Shown here: positions 1 through 9,276 of the stretch, piece after piece
Layout of the letters: each line of letters starts with the position of its first letter
Numbering within the stretch: the stretch's first letter is position 1
Origin: an uncultured archaeon
GTDB taxonomy: Archaea > Iainarchaeota > Iainarchaeia > Iainarchaeales > CSSED10-239
Reading direction: 5' to 3'
Length of the DNA stretch: 9,968 nt
Assembly (NCBI GenBank): GCA_964468895.1
Contig: CAYXWT010000001.1
Location: 40,855-50,822 of the forward strand
Position numbers and translations under genes: made by a program
Notes under the pieces: generated by a model
The model's database searches: none
Told to the model about the DNA's origin: nothing
The model's input: the letters and a program-made list of their open reading frames with translations, nothing else

Positions 1-1320
1 TTAATAGCTAGAAGAAATAAAAAATGTTTTATTACAGGTAATACACCATTTTCAAATATAACTTTAGATTTAACAATACCTTCAACTTTTAAAGATAAAC
101 CAGTTATAATTGGAGGTAAAGTTCAAGATAAAATATATGGTGATTTTACTAAAGAAGTAGAATTATTTAATAAATGTTTATTAGAAGTTTATGAAGATGG
201 TGATGCAAATAAAGCTGTTTTTACTTTTCCTATACCAACAATAAATATTACTAAAGATTTTAATTGGGATAGTATACTAGCAGATAAAGTTTTAGATATA
301 ACTTCTAAATATGGTACACCTTCTTTTTGTAATTATGTAAATTCAGATCTTAATCCAGAAGATGCAAGAAGTATGTGTTGTAGATTAAGATTAGATAATA
401 GAGAACTACATAAAAGAGGTGGTGGTTTATTTGGTTCAAGCCCACTTACTGGTTCTATAGGTGTAGTTACTATTAATATGGGTCAATTAGGTTATCTTTC
501 TAAAGATGAAAATGATTTTTTAGAAAGATTAAGTCACTTGATGGATATAGCTAAAAATTCTTTAGAAATTAAAAGAAAAATTATTGAAAAATATACTGAT
601 GATGGATTATATCCTTATTCTAAATATAATTTAAGAAATATTAAAAAAAGATTTGGTACTTATTGGCAAAATCATTTTTCTACTATAGGTTTATTAGGTA
701 TGAATGAAGCTTTATTGAATTTATTTGGTTATGATTTAACTTCTAAAGATGGAGAAAAGTTTACTTTAAAAACCTTAGATTTTATGAGAGATAAAATGTT
801 AAAATATCAAGAAGAAACAGGTAATTTGTTTAATTTAGAAGCAACTCCTGCAGAAAGTACTACTTATAAATTTGCAAGATATGATAAAGAACATTATCCA
901 GATATAATTGTTGCTAACGAAAAAGAATATAGAGATGGTGCAGAACCATATTATACAAATTCAAGTCAAATGCCAGTTGGTTTTAGTGATGATGTGTTTG
1001 AAGCATTAGATATTCAAGATGATATTCAATGTAAATATACAGGTGGTACTATACTTCACATTTTTATTGGAGAAAAGAAACCAGATAAATTATCTATAAA
1101 ATCATTAATTCAAAAAGTTTGTAAAAATTATAAATTACCTTATTTTACAATTAGTCCTACTTTTAGCATTTGTCCTAAACATGGTTATATATTTGGAGAA
1201 CATAACTATTGTCCAAAATGTGATGATGAAATAAATTATAAAAAAGAACTTGAAAAAATAGAATTAGAAGAAAAAAATAAAATTATAAAAAATAAAAAAG
1301 AGGTTGATGATTTTGAATAG
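1..1320 (+). CDS. nrdD: Anaerobic (class III) ribonucleoside-triphosphate reductase NrdD, catalytic body. The 5' end is cut by the window edge. The ORF stops (TAG 1318-1320) before the glycyl-radical motif.
   Basis: Frame 1 has no stop from base 1. My translation is LIARRNKKCFITGNTPFSNITLDL...AVFTFPIPTINITKDFNWD...NPEDARSMCCRLRLD, so Met373 is internal. NrdD hallmarks present: SMCCRLRLD (373-399, thiyl-radical Cys region), GGGLFG, NLEATPAES, YYTNSSQ, and a C-terminal Zn-ribbon CPKH(x11)CPKC (1171-1221). The expected C-terminal RVxGY glycyl-radical motif is missing from this frame. Confidence 0.9.
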   Translation, partial: LIARRNKKCFITGNTPFSNITLDLTIPSTFKDKPVIIGGKVQDKIYGDFTKEVELFNKCLLEVYEDGDANKAVFTFPIPTINITKDFNWDSILADKVLDITSKYGTPSFCNYVNSDLNPEDARSMCCRLRLDNRELHKRGGGLFGSSPLTGSIGVVTINMGQLGYLSKDENDFLERLSHLMDIAKNSLEIKRKIIEKYTDDGLYPYSKYNLRNIKKRFGTYWQNHFSTIGLLGMNEALLNLFGYDLTSKDGEKFTLKTLDFMRDKMLKYQEETGNLFNLEATPAESTTYKFARYDKEHYPDIIVANEKEYRDGAEPYYTNSSQMPVGFSDDVFEALDIQDDIQCKYTGGTILHIFIGEKKPDKLSIKSLIQKVCKNYKLPYFTISPTFSICPKHGYIFGEHNYCPKCDDEINYKKELEKIELEEKNKIIKNKKEVDDFE

Positions 1321-1340
1321 AACTGAATTGGAAGAAAAAA
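1261..1340 (+). repeat. Pair of 16-nt direct repeats, GAATT[A/G]GAAGAAAAAA, at 1261-1276 and 1325-1340. They are offset by 64 nt and bracket the nrdD frame break.
   Basis: Read directly: gaattagaagaaaaaa versus gaattggaagaaaaaa, 15/16 identical. Each encodes ELEEK in its own reading frame (frame 1 and frame 2). The sequence is purine-rich and low-complexity, so a chance match is not negligible. Confidence 0.5.
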
Positions 1341-1453
1341 GAACTAAATGTGATGTTTATAGTAGAGTTGTAGGTTATGTTAGACCTGTAAGACAATGGA
1401 ACTATGGTAAACAAGCAGAATTTAAAGATAGAAAATTATTTAAAATAGAATAA
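1307..1453 (+). CDS. Mini-ORF (48 aa) encoding the NrdD glycyl-radical C-terminal domain. It lies in the +1 frame relative to the nrdD body and overlaps it by 14 nt.
   Basis: It is not in the ORF track because it is too short. Frame 2 is open from 1289 (after TAA 1286-1288) to TAA 1451-1453. From ATG 1307 it reads MILNRTELEEKRTKCDVYSRVVGYVRPVRQWNYGKQAEFKDRKLFKIE. The segment YSRVVGYxRPVxxWNxGKxxEFKDRK matches the conserved NrdD C-terminus carrying the radical glycine (GGT 1373-1375). GAGGT at 1300-1304 is SD-like. ATG 1307 is only 2 nt downstream of it, whereas in-frame TTG 1313 has a more typical 8-nt spacing, so the exact start is uncertain. Confidence 0.75.
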   Translation: MILNRTELEEKRTKCDVYSRVVGYVRPVRQWNYGKQAEFKDRKLFKIE

Positions 1454-1476
1454 TAATAAATAAAAATGTTTAATTT

Positions 1477-2142
1477 ATGAACTTAAAAATAGGTTACTTA
1501 CAAAAATTTTCAACATTGGATTATCCTTCTAAACTTAGTTGTATATTATTTTTAAAAGGTTGTAATTTTAGATGTGGTTTTTGTTATAATAAAAATTTTG
1601 TTTTACCAGAGTTATTAGATGAAACTCCAGATATGCCTTCAGAGGAATTTTTTAAATTTTTAGATTCTAGAAAAGGAAAGTTAGATGGTGTTGTAATAAC
1701 TGGTGGTGAACCAACTATTTATGGTGAAGAACTTATAAATTTAATTAAAAAAATTAAAGAAAAAGGTTTTTTAGTAAAATTAGATTCAAATGGTTCTAAT
1801 CCTAATATTCTTAAAAAAATAATTTCAAATAAATTAGTGGATTATATTGCAATGGATCTTAAACAAGTATTTCCAAAATATAATTTATTTACTAATATAT
1901 CTCCAAAAGATATAGAACAATCTTTTAATATTGTTAAAAATACGAATATACTTCATGAATTTAGAATTACAACTCATCCTGAATTAAATTTAGACGATTT
2001 TAATAAAATTATAGATTTAGCAAATGGACAAAAGATTTTTGTACAGAATTTTTTAAACAAAAATACAATTAAAAATTATGATAATCCTAAAACTATATTT
2101 TCTAAATTAGATGTTAATTCTAGTAAATATATTCTTAGATAA
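1477..2142 (+). CDS. nrdG: Anaerobic ribonucleotide reductase activating protein NrdG (radical SAM)
   Basis: It has the CxxxCxxC radical-SAM cluster motif CNFRCGFC near the N-terminus and a GGEPT SAM-binding motif (VVITGGEPTIYG). At about 220 aa it has the size typical of archaeal/Thermotoga-type NrdG. It lies 23 nt downstream of the nrdD glycyl-radical ORF. Confidence 0.9.
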   Translation: MNLKIGYLQKFSTLDYPSKLSCILFLKGCNFRCGFCYNKNFVLPELLDETPDMPSEEFFKFLDSRKGKLDGVVITGGEPTIYGEELINLIKKIKEKGFLVKLDSNGSNPNILKKIISNKLVDYIAMDLKQVFPKYNLFTNISPKDIEQSFNIVKNTNILHEFRITTHPELNLDDFNKIIDLANGQKIFVQNFLNKNTIKNYDNPKTIFSKLDVNSSKYILR

Positions 2143-2158
2143 TTAGTATGTGGTATTT

Positions 2159-4261
2159 ATGACTATTAAAGTTAAAGATAAAGATAATATATTAACAGAT
2201 TTTTCTAAAGAAAAGATTACAATTCATCTATTTGAACTTATGTGTTATATAGGTGATCCTAATTTAAAATTGGCTGAAAAATTGGCTTCTACAATAAACG
2301 ATAATTTATATTCCGAAAATATTTCTGAAATTACAACTAATGATTTAGAATTAATTATTAAAGAAATTTTAAAAGAAAAGCATTCTGAATTATTACAAGC
2401 ATTTATTTTAAGAAAAGATGATTCTAGTAATAAATTAAATGTAGATTTAGATTTAAAATATAAATTATTACAAAATATGTTTAATTTAGATTCTTCAGAT
2501 AAAGTTGATAATTATTTGTACCTTATTAGAAATAAATTAATAACTAAAGATCCTAATAATAAAAATTTGTATACTTTGATATTTAAATATATTAATGAAG
2601 GTTTATTTTATCCTTCTACTAATATTTTAGTAAATCTTAACTCTAATTCTAATAATTTATTTAGCTCTTATAATTTAAAAATACAAGATACTCTTGAAAG
2701 TATATTTTCAAAATTAAGTATGTCAGCAACTATTGAAAAAAAAACAGTTAATACTTCTATAAATTTATCTGATATAAGATCTAAAAAAGAAATTGTAAAC
2801 TCAATTAATAAAAATGCTTGCGGACCTATAAAAGTAATAGATTTATTTATATCTGCACATAATTTAATAAATTATAATTCTACAATGAATTCTAATAATT
2901 TATTTTATATAAATATAGAACATCCAGATATATTTGATTTTATTAAGAAAAGTGGAGAGTCTACTAATTTTAATTTTAGTATATTGATAACTAATAGATT
3001 TATGAAAAATTTATTAGCACAAAAAGTATATAGTTTCTCACAAAATAGTAATACTAATAATAATACTGTACAAAAAAAGATGAATTTAGATAACGTTGAA
3101 GAAAAGAATTGTGATTCAAATTATATTGTAGATCCAAATGCAATAATCGATTTTTTAGCAACAAATATTTATAATTCTAATAACATAAATATTATATTTA
3201 TAGATAAACTTAAAGAAAAAAGTTGTTTTTTAAATTATAAAAATACAGAAATATCTCCAATAGGTAATCAGCTCATTTTTGAAAACAATGGTTTTGTTAG
3301 TGGTGTAATAGATCTTTCTAAATTTGTAAATAAAATGGGATCTATAAGATTATTTGATTGGAATAAATTTAAAAAAGTAATTATGGATTCTATTAAATTT
3401 TTAGATAATATCATCGATATATCTTCGTTTATTGATGATAATTTTGAAAATAATATTAAAAATACAAGAAATATTTATTTGTCAATTACAGGTTTTGCAA
3501 CTCTTTTAAGTAAATTAAATATACCATATAATAGTTCTGATGCTCTTTTATTTGGAGAAAAGATTTCTGAATTTATAAGTTATTATTCTAAATATAAATC
3601 TATGTTACTTTCAAAACAAAAAGGTCCATTTTTAAAATACATTAAAAGCAAGTATGATTCTATGAATTTTTCTTTTGATACTTATCCAATTCAAAAAACT
3701 TTATTTTCTGATCAGAAACTTGCAAAAAAGTTATTAGCAAATAAAGCTATTGTTGATTGGGATGAATTAAAAAATAATATTAAAAAGTATGGTATTAGAA
3801 ATGCAACAACATATAGTGTTATTTTTTCAGATTTATTTAGTGTTGCTAATGATTCTACTAATTCAATTAATCCTTTAGAAAAATTAAAATATAGTTATGA
3901 TATAAGTAAAACTGAATTCACAAAAATAAATTCTGATTTATTATTAAATTTAAATGATGTTGATAAAAATATTACTACTGAAGAATTAGAAGAAAAGCTA
4001 AGTCCTAATCTTAAAAAATTATTTGTAACTTATAAAGATATAAAAGCAGAGTTTTATTTAAAGTTACAACATTCTTTTGAAAAATATTGTGATGGTATTT
4101 GTAATATAAATACATATGTTACAAAGGATAATTCTATTAGTGATATTAAAAATCTTATTATAAAAAGTTATGAATATAATAACGTAGGATTTTTTCCAAA
4201 AACAAAAGTAAACTCAACTTTATTTTCAACAAATAATCCTGAATTCAGAAAAAGCTTATAA
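2159..4261 (+). CDS. Class II (NrdJ-like) ribonucleotide reductase homologue with an N-terminal ATP-cone-like domain. Catalytic residues appear substituted, so it is a putative pseudoenzyme.
   Basis: The track ORF starts at GTG 2150, but in-frame ATG 2159 (MTIKVKDKDN...) is the more likely start. The N-terminal ~85 aa follow the ATP-cone pattern (IKVxDKDNxxxxFSKEKI...ITTNDLELIIKEILKE...LQAFILRK). The rest follows the RNR large-subunit barrel consensus block by block:
- FYPSTNILVN, LFSSYNLKIQDTLESIF, SINLSDIRSKK, ACGPIKVIDLF
- NIEHPDIFDFIKK, NFSILITNRFM, EISPIGNQLIFENNGFVSGVIDLSKFV
- FDWNKFKKVIMDSIKFLDNIID, TRNIYLSITGFATLL, QKGPF
- GIRNATTYSV, ICNINTYVTKDNSISDIKNLI. Confidence 0.75.
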   Translation: MTIKVKDKDNILTDFSKEKITIHLFELMCYIGDPNLKLAEKLASTINDNLYSENISEITTNDLELIIKEILKEKHSELLQAFILRKDDSSNKLNVDLDLKYKLLQNMFNLDSSDKVDNYLYLIRNKLITKDPNNKNLYTLIFKYINEGLFYPSTNILVNLNSNSNNLFSSYNLKIQDTLESIFSKLSMSATIEKKTVNTSINLSDIRSKKEIVNSINKNACGPIKVIDLFISAHNLINYNSTMNSNNLFYINIEHPDIFDFIKKSGESTNFNFSILITNRFMKNLLAQKVYSFSQNSNTNNNTVQKKMNLDNVEEKNCDSNYIVDPNAIIDFLATNIYNSNNINIIFIDKLKEKSCFLNYKNTEISPIGNQLIFENNGFVSGVIDLSKFVNKMGSIRLFDWNKFKKVIMDSIKFLDNIIDISSFIDDNFENNIKNTRNIYLSITGFATLLSKLNIPYNSSDALLFGEKISEFISYYSKYKSMLLSKQKGPFLKYIKSKYDSMNFSFDTYPIQKTLFSDQKLAKKLLANKAIVDWDELKNNIKKYGIRNATTYSVIFSDLFSVANDSTNSINPLEKLKYSYDISKTEFTKINSDLLLNLNDVDKNITTEELEEKLSPNLKKLFVTYKDIKAEFYLKLQHSFEKYCDGICNINTYVTKDNSISDIKNLIIKSYEYNNVGFFPKTKVNSTLFSTNNPEFRKSL

Positions 4262-4275: not shown

Positions 4276-6555
4276 TTAATGAACCATAGAATTGTCTTCT
4301 TTATTTGTTTTATCTAAACAAATGTGATTTCTTTTTTTGATTTTTGAAATCTTTTCTATAGCTTCTTTAAATTCTTTGATTGTAATTTTTGGAATTTCTA
4401 TTTTGTGGTTTTTTTCATTTTGTTTTTTCTTTTTAACTATTGTTCTAATAGTTATCATTGCTGCTTCATTACAAATTGCTTCGATATCAGCACCAGAAAA
4501 TTTATTTTTATTTTCTTGTTTAAATATTAATTTTGAAAGCTCTTTTATTTTTATATTTTTGTCTACATTTATTTTTTTTAAATAAACTGCAAATATTTTT
4601 TCTATTGATTTTTCATCAGGTAAAGGAATATATAGTAATTTATCAAATCTTCCAGGTCTTAAGAAAGCATCATCAATAATATCTATTCTATTAGTAGCTC
4701 CAATTATAATTACATCTTTTAATCTTGAAACGTCATCAATTTCTGTTAATAGTTGTGCTGTAACATTATTATTAGTACCACTACTTACACTTGTATTTTT
4801 ACGATTACCAGTAATAGCATCAATTTCATCAAAGAAAATTATACTTGGTGCTAGTTGTCTAGCTTTTTTAAAAAGTTCTCTTATTTTTCGTTCACTTTCT
4901 CCAACCCATTTATTAAATATTTCTGGTCCTTTTACAGAAATAAAATTTGCATTAGATTCATTTGCTATAGCTTTAGCTAGAAGAGTTTTGCCAGTTCCAG
5001 AAGGTCCATAAAGTAAAATTCCACTTGGTGCATTAATACCAGTTTTTTCAAAAATATTTTTATATTTAATAGGCCATTCAATTATTTCTTTTAATTCTTG
5101 TTTTTGCTTATCTAAGCCACCAATATCATCCCATTTTGTATTTGGGATTTGTACTTGTACTTCTCTAATTGCACTTGGTTCAATTATATGTAGAGCATCA
5201 TCAAAATCATTTTGATTTATTATTAATTCATCAAGTATTGTTTTTGAAAGTGTGTTATTAATTTCTTTGTCAATTTTAGGTTTTAATCTTTTTATAGTTT
5301 TTAGAGCAGCCTCTTTACAAAGCATATTTAAGTCAGCTCCAGAAAAGCCATTAGTGTATTCAACAATTTTATTTAAGTTTATTGTATCATCTAATCTCAT
5401 ACCTCTGGTGTGAACTTTCAATATTTCTAAACGTCCAACTTTATTTGGTATTCCAAACTCAATTTCTCTATCAAATCTTCCTGGTCTTCTAAGTGCTTCA
5501 TCTATTGAATTTGGTCTATTAGTTGTTGCCATAACTATAACATTACTTCTAGAACTTAATCCATCCATTAAAGTTAATAATTGAGCAACTATTCTTTTTT
5601 CTGTATCTCCATGAGTATCATCTCTTTTTGGAGCAATAGCATCTATTTCATCTATAAAAATAATAGATGGTGCTTTTTCTTCAGCTTCTTTAAATATATT
5701 TCTTAAATTTTCTTCACTTTTACCATAAACTCCACTTACTATTTCAGGGCCATTAATTGTAATAAAGTTTGCTTCAGTTTCATTAGCTATAGCTTTAGCT
5801 AAAAGAGTTTTACCAGTTCCTGGAGCTCCATAAAGTAAAACACCTTTAGGTGGAGTTATACCTAGTCTAATAAATACTCCTGGTCTTTTTAATGGTAATT
5901 CTATCATTTCTCTGATTTGTTCAATTTCTTTTTTTAAACCACCTATGTCATCATAAGTAATACCAATAAAACCAGTTTGCATTTTTTCTGCAATTGTTAT
6001 ATTTGTTTGTTCAGTAATTCTTACCGGTCCTTTAGGATTTGTTTGTGTAATGATTAATTGAAGGTCTTTAGTTCTTCCATCTTTAGTAGGAATTCCAATT
6101 CTTGGAATTCTAACAATATTATTTTCAAGAAAATTTTTATGTAATAATGTGTTTTTTATATAACCAAGTATGTCAGATCTATTAAGTCCCTTAAGTATTG
6201 CTTGTATGTTTTCTTTATTATTTAATTCTTCGCTAACAATTGGTGCAAGATGTATATTTTTAGAAATTTGACAGTCTATTTTTTCTATATATACTTCTTC
6301 ATCTATTGTTGAGTTTGTATTATATCTAATAGAAGCATCAAATCTAATAATATTTGTACCACCATCATTTATTTTACCTTTTATAGCGTAAGCAATAGTT
6401 TTTTTTTTACTTTTACTTCCAGTTATTTGAATAGTGTCACCAGTACTTAATTTAAATTTTTTAAAAACAAGAGGGTCTATTTTAGCTATCCCCTTACCAA
6501 CTTCAGAAATATCAATTTCTTTTACATTCAAATATGCTTTTTCCATAATAATCAT
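4276..6555 (-). CDS. cdc48: Cdc48/VAT/p97-family AAA+ ATPase (N-domain plus D1 and D2 ATPase modules)
   Basis: There are two complete AAA modules. Walker A motifs are GAPGTGKT and GPSGTGKT. Walker B motifs are [10 protein letters not shown] and [10 protein letters not shown]. Second-region/Arg-finger motifs are [10 protein letters not shown] and [10 protein letters not shown]. The D2 pore loop is KWVGESE. The N-terminus resembles the CDC48 N-domain (LNVKE...[25 protein letters not shown]). An alternative start is ATG 6546 (MEKAYL...). Confidence 0.93.
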
Positions 6556-6671: not shown

Positions 6672-8759
6672 TTAACTTTTTTTAGAATATTTATTTTTAG
6701 TATCTTCTTCTTCTTTTTTAGATTTCTCTTTTTCTTTAATAGCATTAAAGTAATCTTCTTTACTTTTACACTTATGGTTCAAACACATTTCATAAGTTTT
6801 TCTACCATTTAACACTTTGATAATAGGGTTATTACAAAATTCACAAATTTTATCTGTTTTTAGAATTTTTTTATTTTGTGGAAGAGGAAATGTGTTTTTA
6901 CATTTAGGATAGCCACTACAACCTACAAACTGTTTATTATTTCTACTAATTCTTATAAGTAAAGGTTTGCCACATTTTTGGCAAATACCAATTATATCAT
7001 CAGATCTTGCAGCAGCTCTTAATTCTTCTGCAATTTTATTTCTTTCATCTTTTAAAATTTTAATTATTGTTTTTAAGTAATTTCTATTTTCATCAACAAC
7101 TTCTGTTTTATTTTTTTTACCAGCAGCAATTTCATCCATTTCTTTTTCAGTTTGAGAAGTAAGTTTAGGTTTAGTTATTAGTGGACAGTGTTTACCTAAA
7201 ACACCACAAACTGATATAGCAATATCTTTAGCACTAATTTGTTTAGTACCTTCAATATAACCCCTATCTCTTAGCTTTTTAATAATAGCAGGTCTAGTAG
7301 ATTTAGTGCCTAAGTTTTGATCTTCCATTAGTTTAATTAATCCACCTTCAGTATAATGATTTGGAGGTGTTGTCTGTTTATCTTCTTTTATTGGTTCAAT
7401 TATTTTAACTAAATCATCTTTTTTAAGTTCTGGTAAAATAATTTCATTTAATTTAGAAAATATATATATTTCTTTCCAACCTAATTCTAAAATTCTTTGT
7501 CCAGTAACTATAAATGGTTCTTTATTAACATTAATTGTTGCAGATATATTTTCTGTTTTTGCATCTTTAGAAAGTGTAGCTAAAAATCTTCTTACAATTA
7601 AATCATAAATTTTAAGTTCTAACCCATTTAGATTAGCATTATAATCTACTGGGTGTATTGGTGGATGATCTGTAGTTTCTTTTTTACCTCTTGAGGCACT
7701 AATAGGTTGTGATAGAATGTCTTTAATAAACTGACTATAAATTTTATCAGAACTTAATTTATTTAAAATTTCTTTAAAATCTAAACTGTTAGGATATACT
7801 GTATTATCAGTTCTAGGATAACTAATTAAACCTTGTTGATATAAACTTTCTGCTATATTCATTGCATGACTAGTATTAATATTCATACTACTGGCAGCTC
7901 TTAAAAAACTAGTTGTATTAAAAGGTGCTATTTTTTGAATAGTTTTTTTAGTTTTAGAAACAGATTTTACAATACCTTCAGTTTGATTTTTTATATTATC
8001 AAATATTTCTTTAGCTTTACTTAAATCAAATATTTTTCCAAGTTTATGAAGTCCTTCAAATTTAATTTTATTTTTTTCAAAAATTATTTTTAAAATATTA
8101 AAAGGTTCAGAAATAAAAGCCTTTCTTTCAAGTTCTCTTAAAACTATAAAATTTAATAATGGTGTTTGTACTCTTCCAGCTGATAAAAATCTTTTTCCTT
8201 TTCTATTAGCAATTACAGATAAATATCTTGTAAGAATTGCACCCCATAGTAAATCAATTTCTTGTCTTGCAAATACAGAATTTGCATAATTAAAATCTAC
8301 ATCTTTTAATTTTTTAAAAGCATTTTCAATTTCACTTTTAGTAAGTGCACTAAAATAAGCTCTTTTAAGTATAAAGTTTTTATTTTTTTTACAGACATAC
8401 TCTTGAGCTTCTACACCTATAGCTTCACCTTCTCTATCAGCATCTGTTGCAATAATAACAGTTTTAAGATCTTTTCTTTCTTTTTTTAATTGAGCTATAA
8501 TTTTTTTTTCAACAGGTATATAAAGTAATTTTTCTTTAACTAAAGTATCTAAACCAAAAATAGACCAGTATTTATTTTCTCCAGAAAAGTCAACTGTGTT
8601 AATATGACCTCTTAAAGGTATAACTAAGTAATCTTCCTTATCTTTTTTAAATTGAAAACAATTTATACCATCACGATTTTTTATTTCTAATGTGTTATTA
8701 GATAAAATGGTAGCAATTCTTTTACCAGCAATTGCTTTTTCAGAAATTATAAGATTCAT
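6672..8759 (-). CDS. topA: DNA topoisomerase, type IA (TopA / Topo III-like), with C-terminal zinc ribbons
   Basis: The TOPRIM domain is present (N-terminal IISEK Glu, and IIATDADREGEAIG). The catalytic tyrosine motif is LISYPRTDN. Other type IA blocks include LSAGRVQTPLL and TDHPPIHP. There are two C-terminal Zn-ribbons: CQKCGKPLL...VGCSGYPKCKNTFPLP and CEFCNNP...CLNHKCKSK. It has no helicase module, so it is not reverse gyrase. Confidence 0.93.
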   Translation of the reverse strand: MNLIISEKAIAGKRIATILSNNTLEIKNRDGINCFQFKKDKEDYLVIPLRGHINTVDFSGENKYWSIFGLDTLVKEKLLYIPVEKKIIAQLKKERKDLKTVIIATDADREGEAIGVEAQEYVCKKNKNFILKRAYFSALTKSEIENAFKKLKDVDFNYANSVFARQEIDLLWGAILTRYLSVIANRKGKRFLSAGRVQTPLLNFIVLRELERKAFISEPFNILKIIFEKNKIKFEGLHKLGKIFDLSKAKEIFDNIKNQTEGIVKSVSKTKKTIQKIAPFNTTSFLRAASSMNINTSHAMNIAESLYQQGLISYPRTDNTVYPNSLDFKEILNKLSSDKIYSQFIKDILSQPISASRGKKETTDHPPIHPVDYNANLNGLELKIYDLIVRRFLATLSKDAKTENISATINVNKEPFIVTGQRILELGWKEIYIFSKLNEIILPELKKDDLVKIIEPIKEDKQTTPPNHYTEGGLIKLMEDQNLGTKSTRPAIIKKLRDRGYIEGTKQISAKDIAISVCGVLGKHCPLITKPKLTSQTEKEMDEIAAGKKNKTEVVDENRNYLKTIIKILKDERNKIAEELRAAARSDDIIGICQKCGKPLLIRISRNNKQFVGCSGYPKCKNTFPLPQNKKILKTDKICEFCNNPIIKVLNGRKTYEMCLNHKCKSKEDYFNAIKEKEKSKKEEEDTKNKYSKKS

Positions 8760-8793: not shown

Positions 8794-9276
8794 TTAAAAT
8801 GTCGTTTGTAATATTTTTCTAGGTAAGTTTTTACTTTTTTTATGTTCTTCGAGAACTGTAAGTATACTAATTTTAGTAATACCATCTGTTTTGAAAATAT
8901 TATCTAAAAGTATCTTAAGATCGTTTTTATCTAAAGCCATTATTTTAATAATAATATTATATTCTCCAGTAACTTCTAATATTTCTTTTATATCTTCATT
9001 TTCACTTAATTTTTTTAGAATTTCTTTTCTTTTAGAAGGATCTATAGATATTAATAATTCTGCTTTTTCATTAAATCCTAATACTTCATAATCAATTTCT
9101 GCAGATATTGCTTTCATTATTCCTCTTTGAAATAACCTATCTAATCTTTTTTTAATTGCAACATCTGTTAAATTTATTTCTTTTGCAATATTTGCAAAAG
9201 ATGTCCTTCCATTAATAGTTAATTGTTCAAGTATATATTTGTCAATTTTGTCTATAACATGCATAGTAAACACCAT
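8794..9276 (-). CDS. Lrp/AsnC-family transcriptional regulator
   Basis: The N-terminal winged HTH pattern is DKIDKYILEQLTINGRTSFANIAKEINLTDVAIKKRLDRLFQRGIM. It is followed by an ~80-aa RAM/ligand-binding-like half. At about 155-160 aa the size is typical for the family. The alternative start ATG 9264 (MHVIDK...) is preceded by GGTG with 6-nt spacing and may be the true start. Confidence 0.88.
   Translation of the reverse strand: MVFTMHVIDKIDKYILEQLTINGRTSFANIAKEINLTDVAIKKRLDRLFQRGIMKAISAEIDYEVLGFNEKAELLISIDPSKRKEILKKLSENEDIKEILEVTGEYNIIIKIMALDKNDLKILLDNIFKTDGITKISILTVLEEHKKSKNLPRKILQTTF

What the first reader, a model, noticed from the sequence alone, without database searches (positions are those of the whole stretch)
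1171..1453. The NrdD glycyl-radical domain is detached from the catalytic body and encoded in the +1 frame as a 48-codon overlapping mini-ORF
In class III RNRs the radical glycine sits in a conserved RVxGY...WNxGKxxExxxR tail at the extreme C-terminus of the same polypeptide, just after the Zn-ribbon.

Here the frame-1 ORF runs through the Zn-ribbon (1171-1221), then a Lys/Glu-rich stretch (INYKKELEKIELEEKNKIIKNKKEVDDFE), and stops at TAG 1318-1320. The perfectly conserved tail (CDVYSRVVGYVRPVRQWNYGKQAEFKDRKLF) lies in frame 2 (1289-1453). That frame has an ATG at 1307 inside an ATGATTTTGAATAG start/stop overlap and an SD-like GAGGT at 1300-1304.

I see three readings:
- Genuine two-piece enzyme. 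The radical-bearing peptide would be made separately. GrcA/YfiD, which substitutes for the oxygen-cleaved glycyl-radical domain of pyruvate formate-lyase, is a conceptual precedent for a cheaply replaceable radical module.
- One-base indel, real or a sequencing artefact. Removing a single A from the A6 run at 1294-1299 fuses the frames into one ORF (...KNKKRLMILNRTELEEKRTKCDVYSRVVGY...).
- Recoding. This would be a +1 ribosomal shift, or polymerase slippage on the A-run of the kind that rescues genes in other AT-rich reduced genomes, although A6 is short for that.

The tail shows no degradation and nrdG downstream is intact, which argues against a decaying pseudogene.
Basis: partly seen in the sequence, partly recalled or inferred. 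Interest (0 to 1): 0.7.

Follow-up and report, generated by a model that had tools for sequence, protein, structure and literature searches.

The report
Two-gene anaerobic ribonucleotide reductase
In this archaeon, and in many other tiny-celled archaea and Elusimicrobia, the glycine that carries the radical of the anaerobic DNA-precursor enzyme is made as a separate ~5 kDa peptide, and viruses, including one found in the same samples as this organism, carry the gene for that peptide alone.

Summary
The nrdD body stops at TAG 1318-1320, after the Zn-ribbon. The RVVGY glycyl-radical tail is a 46-48 codon ORF (1307/1313-1453) in the +1 frame, followed by nrdG.

It is a real, conserved two-gene enzyme, not an indel, artefact or frameshift signal:
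- Eight assemblies of this species (98.8-100% identical) carry the identical junction.
- The closest other species (82% aa identity) has an 86-88 nt spacer instead of an overlap.
- 25 of 80 species-representative genomes with this NrdD subtype are split at the same protein position. These are DPANN archaea and Elusimicrobiaceae.
- Their frame offsets are 0, 1 or 2 and their gaps run from -20 to +156 nt.
- 28 of 31 tail ORFs have their own Shine-Dalgarno motif, and tail dN/dS is about 0.17.
- Contiguous relatives carry a helix-loop-helix linker at this site, and the break falls in its loop.

Viral contigs carry the tail gene alone:
- A head-tailed virus from the same samples has an 89%-identical copy.
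- 75 of the 80 best IMG/VR matches are orphan tails.
- The published ANMV-1 virus has one as well.

I found no paper describing a split class III RNR. I rate it a new variant of a known kind, of high interest, with no biochemical test yet.

The parts
1..42 (+). Last 14 codons (LIARRNKKCFITGN) of a 322-aa LAGLIDADG intein inserted in nrdD. The +1 extein residue Thr is at 43-45.
   Evidence: The full gene was seen in L002 636-3581 (981 aa). The intein is CLSEDTEIL...CFITGN|T, inserted at PTRVGFQ|TPFSNITLD. Intein-free orthologs are about 675 aa.
43..1320 (+). nrdD body: the C-extein part of the catalytic subunit of the class III ribonucleotide reductase. It ends at TAG 1318-1320 and has no glycyl-radical motif.
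   Evidence: Pfam NRDD E 1.6e-119, covering profile positions 156-533 of 562. It contains the Cys loop SMCCRLRLD. It is 65-82% identical to orthologous bodies that stop at the same place.
1171..1221 (+). Zn-ribbon CPKH-x10-CPKC, retained on the body.
   Evidence: Translation. It aligns with T. maritima NrdD 4COI up to CPVCG609. C611, P612, H614, G615, C624, P625 and C627 are invariant in alignment A1.
1222..1317 (+). Lys/Glu-rich C-terminal extension of the body (DDEINYKKELEKIELEEKNKIIKNKKEVDDFE). It is the first half of a former helix-loop-helix linker.
   Evidence: Contiguous relatives P0023, P0025, P0030, P0037 and P0112 have CDxEIGY, about 30 aa, then LExKRxxCEVYSRVVGY. In the AF2 model of P0112 this is helix 669-677, loop 678-683, helix 684-692, with pLDDT about 77-86.
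1294..1299 (+). A6 run. It is incidental and not a recoding site.
   Evidence: It is identical in all 8 assemblies. It is absent or irrelevant in orthologs whose tail gene is separated by 4-156 nt or lies in another frame.
1300..1304 (+). Shine-Dalgarno-like GAGGT serving the tail cistron.
   Evidence: 28 of 31 distinct split loci have an SD-like motif at -16 to -4 of the tail ATG, against 14% background, p = 4e-21.
1307..1453 (+). Tail gene encoding the free-standing glycyl-radical peptide. It is 48 aa from ATG 1307, or 46 aa from TTG 1313. It overlaps the body stop by 14 nt (or 8 nt).
   Evidence: Pfam NRDD positions 530-562 of 562, E 3.9e-10. The identical protein was called on 7 other contigs. 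There are 51 close clusters, all 44-65 aa. dN/dS has a median of 0.17.
1373..1375 (+). GGT codon of the radical glycine (G23 of the 48-aa product, in RVVGY).
   Evidence: Read from the sequence. It aligns with RIVGY of T. maritima NrdD. The Gly is invariant in all 29 tails compared.
1477..2142 (+). nrdG, the radical-SAM activase.
   Evidence: NCBIfam TIGR02495 NrdG2 at 170.9 bits, above the 131.15 cut-off. Pfam Radical_SAM and Fer4_12. It follows the tail gene in every cellular split locus whose called gene context I viewed.
2150..4261 (+). Downstream class II-like RNR gene (ATP-cone plus Ribonuc_red_lgC). It is the same-strand neighbour, conserved in relatives.
   Evidence: Pfam Ribonuc_red_lgC 1e-59. 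NCBIfam NrdJ_Z at 223 bits, below the 400-bit cut-off. The same neighbour is present in L008-L011, L014, L095, L099 and L101.

Best explanation
This is a natural two-subunit class III ribonucleotide reductase.

The large gene makes the catalytic barrel with its Cys loop, allosteric ATP-cone and Zn-ribbon, after an intein is spliced out. A second, separately initiated cistron makes a 46-48 aa peptide that carries the radical glycine. The peptide's start is translationally coupled to the body's stop by an overlap in this species. In other species the tail gene follows the body stop directly or after a spacer of up to 156 nt.

Inferred steps:
- The peptide docks non-covalently into the barrel, where the C-terminal glycyl-radical domain of ordinary NrdD sits.
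- NrdG installs the radical on it.
- The enzyme then works like ordinary NrdD.

The break lies in the loop of a helix-loop-helix linker that contiguous relatives carry between the Zn-ribbon and the radical strand. One helix is therefore left on each piece.

The likely pay-off, also inferred: oxygen cleaves glycyl-radical proteins at the radical glycine. Here that would destroy only a 5 kDa peptide rather than a 700-1000 aa, intein-containing protein. A free peptide may also be easier for the activase to reach.
For: Shown:
1. Body and tail abut exactly in the NRDD profile and in T. maritima NrdD, between G609 and K610.
2. The identical junction is found in 8 assemblies of this species.
3. The nearest species, L095/L096 (82% aa identity), has an 86-88 nt spacer plus AAGGTGA-ATG. 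L099/L101 have 9 or 18 nt, in frame 0.
4. All relatives at 64-72% identity end after CPxCDxEIGY..., and each is followed by a 45-54 aa tail gene and nrdG.
5. 25 of 80 GTDB species-representative loci are split. By record title they are Woesearchaeota, Pacearchaeota, Nanoarchaeota, Nanobdellota, Micrarchaeota, unclassified archaea and 8 Elusimicrobiaceae. Frame offsets are 0, 1 and 2, and gaps run from -20 to +156 nt.
6. SD motifs lie upstream of 28 of 31 tails, p = 4e-21.
7. The tail core is under purifying selection. Median dN/dS is 0.17, and 0.007-0.02 in close pairs. The Gly is invariant.
8. Stand-alone tails are numerous. There are 51 clusters of the window type and 514 of the Elusimicrobia type, the 120 best of which are all 60-101 aa. 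The 150 best of 4756 hits in an exhaustive search are all 42-149 aa.
9. Contiguous long-linker relatives exist, and an AF2 model shows helix-loop-helix at the break.
10. Viruses carry the tail alone. That makes sense only if the peptide works in trans.
11. There is no terminator between the body, the tail and nrdG.
Against: - There is no transcript, peptide or activity evidence, and everything comes from metagenomes and MAGs.
- The single-chain AF2 model did not place the radical domain with confidence (pLDDT below 50 from residue 697). No complex prediction was possible.
- A class II-like RNR sits in the same gene cluster, so NrdD might be dispensable. The selection signal argues otherwise.
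- ATG 1307 is only 2 nt from the SD, so the start codon is uncertain.
- A minor fused product from rare slippage at the A6 run cannot be excluded for this one species.
- I could not check whether a second, contiguous nrdD exists elsewhere in this genome.
Confidence: 0.85

Rival explanations
1. Sequencing or assembly error, or a private one-base indel. On this view the true gene is contiguous, with one A fewer at 1294-1299.
For: Removing one A restores a single ORF. Homopolymers are error-prone on some platforms.
Against: - The 40-nt junction is identical in 8 contigs from ENA, Logan and JGI assemblies. These contigs otherwise differ by up to 1.2% and have no gaps.
- Orthologs in dozens of species are broken at the same protein position but with different DNA geometry.
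- In most of them no single-base change would fuse the frames.
Confidence: 0.01
2. Recoding. A +1 ribosomal frameshift, or transcriptional slippage on the A-run, makes a fused full-length NrdD, and the mini-ORF is not translated on its own.
For: The tail is in the +1 frame and overlaps the body ORF. An A6 run lies 8 nt upstream of the ATG. The genome is very AT-rich, with 22.9% GC.
Against: - No slippery site or frame relation is conserved. Offsets 0, 1 and 2 all occur.
- Spacers of up to 156 nt contain several stops.
- The closest species has an 86-88 nt spacer.
- SD plus ATG precede nearly every tail.
- Viruses carry the tail with no body to shift from.
Confidence: 0.03
3. Decaying pseudogene. 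NrdD was inactivated and the neighbouring class II-like RNR supplies dNTPs.
For: A class II-like RNR gene follows nrdG. Reduced genomes accumulate broken genes.
Against: - The body, the tail and nrdG are intact and conserved across lineages with saturated synonymous divergence.
- Tail dN/dS is 0.007-0.25.
- The catalytic Cys loop, the Zn-ribbon and the intein splice residues are intact.
- The same architecture is maintained in at least 25 species and hundreds of protein clusters.
Confidence: 0.04
4. Functional split without any adaptive value. On this view the fission is neutral. It is tolerated because the radical domain already binds the barrel tightly, and it then spreads by drift in small-genome lineages.
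For: The break lies in a surface-type linker loop. Split genes are common in DPANN-type reduced genomes (my own knowledge, not tested here).
Against: - The split state recurs in separate parts of the NrdD tree, with at least 3 state changes in 100 of 100 bootstrap NJ trees.
- It occurs in archaea and in bacteria.
- Many viruses carry the tail gene alone. This suggests that the free peptide has value in itself.

This rival concerns only the reason for the split, not the mechanism.
Confidence: 0.3

Closest known systems
Canonical class III RNR NrdD/NrdG (for example T. maritima NrdD, PDB 4COI/4U3E, and phage T4 NrdD)
   Same: - The same catalytic barrel family (Pfam NRDD), Cys loop, Zn-ribbon and RVxGY...WNxGK radical motif.
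- An adjacent NrdG2-type activase.
   Different: The radical glycine is on a separate polypeptide of 45-100 aa instead of at the C-terminus of the same chain. In T. maritima the two parts are adjacent residues, G609 and K610.
GrcA/YfiD of E. coli and Y06I of phage T4, the autonomous glycyl-radical 'spare parts' for pyruvate formate-lyase
   Same: - A small free-standing protein carries the radical glycine and works with a large body.
- A virus-encoded version exists.
- Andorfer et al. 2021 (PMC8683613) state that only these two are validated, and speculate that other glycyl-radical enzymes may have spare parts.
   Different: - GrcA is homologous to the PFL C-terminus (my own knowledge); Pfam placed the peptide here in NRDD only.
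- GrcA backs up a PFL that keeps its own radical domain. Here the cellular body has none, so the peptide is an obligate subunit.
- Only the viral copies look like true spares.
Split class II RNR NrdJa/NrdJb of Pseudomonas aeruginosa
   Same: The RNR catalytic subunit is encoded by two consecutive genes in one operon, and the C-terminal piece is split off. Crona et al. [quoted passage not shown]
   Different: - The class and the chemistry differ.
- NrdJb carries a Zn-finger and the Cys pair for re-reduction.
- Here the Zn-ribbon stays on the body, and the split-off piece carries the radical itself.
Phage 'genes-in-pieces' RNRs (Aeh1 nrdA split by mobE; T4 nrdD intron; phiAS4 fragmented nrdD), reviewed by Dwivedi et al. 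2013 (PMC3653736)
   Same: RNR coding sequence is interrupted, yet in some cases still functional.
   Different: Those interruptions are caused by introns, inteins or homing endonucleases, or are unexplained fragmentation in single phages. Here there is no mobile element at the break. The intein lies elsewhere in the gene. The break is also conserved over phyla.

Membership tests
Class III ribonucleotide reductase (NrdD/NrdG) | Catalytic alpha/beta-barrel of the NRDD family with the finger-loop cysteine(s) | tested here: met
   Pfam NRDD E 1.6e-119. SMCCRLRLD is present. NCBIfam NF006126 gives 988 bits for ortholog P0002, above the 548-bit cut-off.
Class III ribonucleotide reductase (NrdD/NrdG) | Glycyl-radical motif RVxGY...WNxGK | tested here: met
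   It is present in the 48-aa ORF. The Gly is invariant in 29 orthologous tails.
Class III ribonucleotide reductase (NrdD/NrdG) | Radical motif at the C-terminus of the same polypeptide as the barrel (enzyme described as a homodimer of one chain) | tested here: not met
   A stop at 1318-1320 separates them. Separate cistrons are found in at least 25 species.
Class III ribonucleotide reductase (NrdD/NrdG) | Dedicated radical-SAM activase NrdG encoded alongside | tested here: met
   TIGR02495 NrdG2 at 170.9 bits, above the 131.15 cut-off.
Class III ribonucleotide reductase (NrdD/NrdG) | Glycyl radical formed and NTPs reduced | not testable with these tools
   This needs EPR and an activity assay.
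GrcA/YfiD autonomous glycyl-radical cofactor | Small free-standing protein bearing the radical glycine | tested here: met
   46-48 aa ORF with its own SD.
GrcA/YfiD autonomous glycyl-radical cofactor | Homology to the PFL C-terminal glycyl-radical domain (Pfam Gly_radical) | tested here: not met
   The Pfam scan at E <= 0.01 returns only NRDD. NCBIfam returns only NrdD models.
GrcA/YfiD autonomous glycyl-radical cofactor | Acts as a spare for a full-length enzyme that has its own radical domain | tested here: not met
   The cellular body ends before the motif. For the viral orphans this remains open.
Programmed frameshift or transcriptional slippage gene | Conserved slippery sequence and a fixed frame relation between the two ORFs | tested here: not met
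   Frame offsets 0, 1 and 2, gaps from -20 to +156 nt, and no shared motif.
Split RNR of the NrdJa/NrdJb type | Two adjacent genes that together equal one RNR catalytic subunit | tested here: met
Split RNR of the NrdJa/NrdJb type | Class II (B12) enzyme, with the split-off piece carrying a Zn-finger and a redox Cys pair | tested here: not met
   This is a class III enzyme. The Zn-ribbon stays on the body and the split-off piece carries the radical Gly.

The most novel reading that the evidence does not exclude
The NrdD radical peptide may be a freely exchangeable, separately activated protein cofactor, in effect a 'GrcA for ribonucleotide reductase'.

On this reading, cells with the split enzyme replace the oxygen-killed 5 kDa peptide instead of the whole enzyme. 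Viruses exploit the same modularity. They would carry only the peptide gene, sometimes with its own Zn-ribbon, to keep the host's NrdD bodies armed for dNTP synthesis during infection.

This would also mean that 'nrdD' calls in viral genomes such as ANMV-1 are not reductases at all, but radical spare parts.
Probability: 0.45. Interest if true: 0.9.

Novelty: new variant of a known kind. Interest (0 to 1): 0.82.

Why it matters
[quoted passage not shown] How the buried glycine becomes accessible to the activase is, to my knowledge, unsettled.

What a natural two-piece enzyme offers:
- A ready-made experimental system in which the radical carrier can be made, labelled, activated and added separately.
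- A direct test of the published speculation that glycyl-radical enzymes other than pyruvate formate-lyase have spare parts (PMC8683613).
- A second case of a split RNR in cellular organisms. The first was stated to be unique (PMC4520616).

It also changes annotation practice:
- 45-100 aa ORFs now labelled 'anaerobic ribonucleoside-triphosphate reductase' or 'hypothetical protein' are real subunits.
- Bodies lacking the RVxGY tail are not pseudogenes.
- Viral 'nrdD' hits may be peptide-only genes.

The virus and host contigs from the same samples, with an 89%-identical peptide, suggest a virus-host link for a DPANN-like archaeon. Few such links are known.

Tried and rejected
1. Heterodimeric coiled-coil tether. 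The Elusimicrobia body ends (KAERMQELEHKIKLLEEQLYSK) and tail starts (MTAQERQVVENKISELKKEL...) both show 3-4-3-4 hydrophobic spacing. Many DPANN pairs, however, have extensions of only 5-12 aa. It therefore cannot be the general docking mechanism, and I keep it only as a lineage-specific idea.

2. Tail cysteine (KC[ED]VYSRV) as an inter-subunit Zn ligand. It is invariant in the 30 genuine split loci, but also present in 47 of 54 contiguous ones, and it is replaced in some viral orphans. This is suggestive only.

3. AF2 of a contiguous long-linker relative (P0112). It gave a usable linker model but a low-confidence radical domain. I therefore ran no fold search and make no docking claim.

4. 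Relatedness of the host nrdD intein and the viral terminase intein. There is no significant similarity; the best E is 0.006 over 131 aa at 25% identity.

5. tRNA, Rfam and terminator scans of the window found nothing.

6. A cultured organism with the split. None was named among the Elusimicrobia-type hits. Among deposited phages only ANMV-1, which is uncultured, has an orphan. PhiF1 and the Oceanotoga phage have full-length nrdD.

The figure of 25 in 80 is therefore a fraction of the best-matching subset and not a census.

8. The NJ/Fitch count of origins is crude. The deep nodes are unresolved, so I claim only more than one origin.
Full report
**1. The observation.**
The window has 22.9% GC. 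Its genes are:

| Gene | Coordinates | Strand |
|---|---|---|
| 3' part of nrdD | 1-1320 | + |
| 48-codon ORF | 1307-1453 | + |
| nrdG | 1477-2142 | + |
| Class II-like RNR | 2150-4261 | + |
| CDC48 | 4276-6555 | - |
| Topoisomerase I | 6672-8759 | - |
| Lrp/AsnC regulator | 8794-9276 | - |

 The gene content looks archaeal.

- The Zn-ribbon CPKH...CPKC lies at 1171-1221.
- A Lys/Glu-rich extension follows, and TAG lies at 1318-1320.
- The tail ...KCDVYSRVVGYVRPVRQWNYGKQAEFKDRKLF is in the +1 frame, which is open from 1289.
- ATG is at 1307, GAGGT at 1300-1304 and the A6 run at 1294-1299.

Pfam NRDD covers the body up to profile position 533 of 562 (E 1.6e-119). It covers the mini-ORF from 530 to 562 (E 3.9e-10), so the two ORFs are the two halves of one family profile. 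On T. maritima NrdD (4COI/4U3E) the break falls between G609 (CPVCG) and K610 (KAKVDEYMRIVGY).

**2. Not an artefact and not private to one assembly.**
- Exact-protein look-ups found the same tail on seven other contigs, from ENA, Logan and JGI assemblies.
- These contigs are 98.8-100% identical to the window, without gaps, and carry the identical 40-nt junction.
- Some of the assemblies may derive from the same samples. They are nevertheless different pipelines and visibly different strains.

**3. The break is conserved, but its DNA geometry is not.**
I searched with an intein-free, frame-repaired NrdD. All nearest relatives (64-72% identity; about 675 aa, or about 995 aa with the intein) cover only about 90% of the query. 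They end just after CPxCDxEIGY.... Relatives at 57-60% identity are contiguous.

In the contigs of four such relatives, a 45-54 aa tail gene and then nrdG follow the body:

| Locus | Junction |
|---|---|
| L009 | 4-nt overlap |
| L012, L014 | 4-nt gap |
| L010 | 44-nt gap |

The nearest other species behave the same way:
- L095/L096 are 82% aa identical. They have an 86-88 nt AT-rich spacer full of stops, then AAGGTGA-N5-ATG.
- L099/L101 have 9 or 18 nt, in frame 0.

A scan of one genome per GTDB species returned 80 loci of this NrdD subtype, of which 25 are split. By record title they are:

| Group | Split loci |
|---|---|
| Woesearchaeota | 6 |
| Pacearchaeota | 3 |
| Nanoarchaeota | 1 |
| Nanobdellota | 1 |
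| Micrarchaeota | 1 |
| Unclassified archaea | 5 |
| Elusimicrobiaceae | 8 |

The other 55 are contiguous. They include Bathyarchaeia, Syntrophomonas, Syntrophus, Omnitrophota and Bacteroidales.

Over the 30 distinct genuine split loci in that table (including the window and four relatives from other searches; an apparent 31st, L052, is a script artefact and is contiguous):
- The tail is in frame 0, +1 or +2 relative to the body (10, 12 and 8 loci).
- Gaps range from -20 to +156 nt.

In a slightly different set of 31 distinct split loci, 28 have an SD-like motif upstream of the tail ATG. The background frequency is 14% (p = 4e-21).

No frameshift, slippage or read-through mechanism fits this pattern. 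Independent initiation does.

**4. The tail is under selection and is abundant.**
- Over the 28-codon core, median dN/dS is 0.17. Close pairs give 0.007-0.02 with saturated dS. The radical Gly is invariant.
- A word-indexed search with the window's tail found 51 clusters, all 44-65 aa.
- The Elusimicrobia-type tail found 514 clusters, and the best 120 are all 60-101 aa.
- An exhaustive HMMER search of 1.84 billion representatives gave 4756 hits. The best 150 are all 42-149 aa. A few of these may be truncated calls at contig ends.
- GenBank already lists such ORFs, for example HNW05486.1 (49 aa, 'anaerobic ribonucleoside-triphosphate reductase').
- NCBIfam has no model for them. They match only the last 30-35 positions of full-length NrdD models, far below the cut-offs.

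**5. Where the break lies and how it probably arose.**
A contiguous sister form has a roughly 30-aa insertion at exactly this place. It is seen in P0023, P0025, P0030, P0037 and P0112 (Micrarchaeota), with the pattern CPKCDxEIGY-...-LExKRxxCEVYSRVVGY.

An AF2 model of P0112 (mean pLDDT 74) shows this insertion as follows:
- Helix 669-677, loop 678-683 and helix 684-692, with pLDDT about 77-86.
- Then the strand that leads to G705.
- The radical domain itself is modelled with low confidence.

The split forms end after the first helix and restart with the second. One example is the split locus labelled Micrarchaeota, L044...EIGYTQLKQKMEVKN* followed by MNEEEIKDLEKKRTKC.... L044 groups with the long-linker proteins in the tree. 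The most likely history is therefore a linker insertion followed by fission in the linker loop.

Bootstrap NJ trees need at least 3 changes between split and contiguous states in 100 of 100 replicates. The Elusimicrobia sequences sit among contiguous bacterial ones. The method is crude, so I conclude only that the split arose, or was transferred, more than once.

**6. Mechanism.**
Shown: there are two cistrons in one operon, each intact and conserved, with nrdG immediately after and no terminator in between.

Inferred:
- The peptide occupies the place of the C-terminal glycyl-radical domain inside the barrel.
- NrdG activates it. Because the Zn-ribbon stays on the body, activation probably happens on the assembled complex.
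- Catalysis then proceeds as in ordinary NrdD.

Why the enzyme is split is also inference. Oxygen cleaves glycyl-radical proteins at the radical glycine. This is established for PFL, where GrcA and T4 Y06I replace the lost piece (PMC8683613). With a detached peptide, only 5 kDa has to be remade. In this species the body is 981 aa and needs intein splicing, which raises the stakes. A purely neutral fission remains possible.

**7. Viruses carry the tail alone.**
A tail 89% identical to the window's (P0125, 51 aa) is not next to any nrdD. It shares 83% nt identity over 134 nt with window 1331-1462.

It sits in the head module of a head-tailed virus, between a portal/Mu-F fusion protein and the capsid genes. 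A terminase with an intein lies upstream. Twenty kilobases of that contig contain no NrdD body, NrdG or NrdJ. Six of its seven source samples also hold contigs of the window's species.

In IMG/VR, 166 loci match a tail profile. The best 80 break down as follows:
- 75 are orphan tails with stop-to-stop ORFs of 43-173 aa. They have no NrdD body and no NrdG within up to 10 kb on either side, by tblastn and by a body HMM.
- 3 are full-length nrdD genes (L121, L143, L173).
- 1 is a 159-aa C-terminal fragment (L165).
- 1 (L181) did not match my tail pattern and showed no NrdD body.

Phage hallmark genes flank the five orphan loci of the first IMG/VR scan: baseplate, DNA polymerase, clamp loader and endolysin. 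Nine of the 64 distinct orphan ORFs have a CxxC within 30 residues upstream of the tail.

The published archaeal virus ANMV-1 (KP703175.1) has such a protein. It is AJP62049.1, 144 aa, with CHDC...CPKC plus ...CEMYSRIVGY.... No NrdD body or NrdG occurs anywhere in its 38.5 kb record. The original paper read this ORF as 'an oxygen-sensitive ribonucleotide reductase' (PMC4372165).

These orphans are the strongest indirect evidence that the peptide works in trans. They also suggest a virus-encoded spare part for class III RNR.

**8. Comparison with what is known, and novelty.**

| Source | Statement |
|---|---|
| Crona et al. [quoted passage not shown]
| Burnim et al. 2022 (PMC9669993) | Split domains are treated as particular to class II. 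|
| Andorfer et al. 2021 | Only the PFL spare parts are validated. |
| 2026 review of glycyl-radical enzymes | My term search of it found no passage on a split or free-standing radical domain in class III RNR. |
| Dwivedi et al. 2013 | Lists only intron, intein, homing-endonuclease or fragmented phage nrdD genes. |

Nine full-text searches found no description of this architecture. The library does not hold most subscription journals, so an earlier mention cannot be excluded.

The enzyme belongs to class III RNR by every sequence feature except the single-chain architecture. It works like a GrcA-type system but is not a GrcA homolog. I rate it a new variant of a known kind.

**9. Verdict.**
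- Confidence that this is a genuine, functional two-subunit NrdD is about 0.85.
- Interest is 0.82.
- The main gap is the complete lack of transcript, protein or activity data.

Noticed in passing
L103 9872-10027 (also L104-L109); compare window 1331-1462: A head-tailed virus carries a stand-alone 51-aa NrdD radical peptide, 89% aa identical to the window's. The contig also encodes a terminase with an intein, a portal/Mu-F fusion, a major capsid protein and Mtd_N. There is no NrdD body, NrdG or NrdJ in 20 kb. Six of its seven source samples also hold contigs of the window's species, which suggests a virus-host pair.
   Followed up: yes
L116-L195 (IMG/VR loci): 75 of the 80 best viral matches to the tail profile are orphan tail ORFs with no NrdD body or activase within up to 10 kb on either side. 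Nine of the 64 distinct orphan ORFs have a CxxC within 30 residues upstream of the tail. L165 is a 159-aa fragment (body positions 560-667 plus the tail).
   Followed up: yes
L199 (KP703175.1, ANMV-1 virus) 25525-25959, minus strand: The gene published as nrdD of this archaeal virus is only 144 aa: a Zn-ribbon-like CHDC...CPKC plus the radical tail. The 38.5 kb record has no NrdD body or NrdG. The paper's statement that the virus encodes an oxygen-sensitive RNR seems to need revision.
   Followed up: yes
window 1-42; L002 1338-2303: nrdD carries a 322-aa LAGLIDADG intein (Cys1, terminal Asn, +1 Thr, penultimate Gly instead of His) inserted at PTRVGFQ|TPFSNITLD. Relatives occur with and without it (about 995 versus about 675 aa).
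   Followed up: partly
L002 519-638: The ATP-cone of nrdD (IISRKNKLIDYNIYKIKLAVLKALDAINNPD) reads in frame upstream of the called ATG (636), back to a TGA at 519-521. No ATG, GTG or TTG lies in between. This could mean a non-canonical start (ATT/ATA) or an N-terminally shortened cone.
   Followed up: no
window 1307-1315: The tail's start codon is ambiguous. ATG 1307 lies 2 nt after GAGGT. TTG 1313 lies 8 nt after it, and its product aligns exactly with the ortholog of the nearest species (MNKNELEEKRTKC in L095).
   Followed up: partly
L056, L057, L075, L077, L078, L080, L090, L094 (Elusimicrobiaceae): The body ends with a heptad-patterned helix (KAERMQELEHKIKLLEEQLYSK) and the tail starts with one (MTAQERQVVENKISELKKEL). 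The tails end in Cys-rich strings (GCSCGCDK, and in some an Asn/Thr/Ser-rich run). The spacers are 93-156 nt, and 7 of 8 keep frame 0. This may reflect a coiled-coil tether and a redox or metal tail.
   Followed up: partly
window 2150-4261: The class II-like RNR next to nrdG scores below NCBIfam's NrdJ cut-offs (223 versus 400 bits) and has Asn-rich stretches. The same neighbour is conserved in relatives. I did not examine whether it is an active B12 enzyme.
   Followed up: no
L103 4375-7161: The viral terminase large subunit carries an intein with a LAGLIDADG domain. It is not detectably related to the host nrdD intein (best E 0.006).
   Followed up: yes
L112 3-5102 (IMG/VR): A viral contiguous nrdD reading frame of 1699 aa has the NrdD homology in at least four separated blocks. 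This suggests several inteins in one gene.
   Followed up: no
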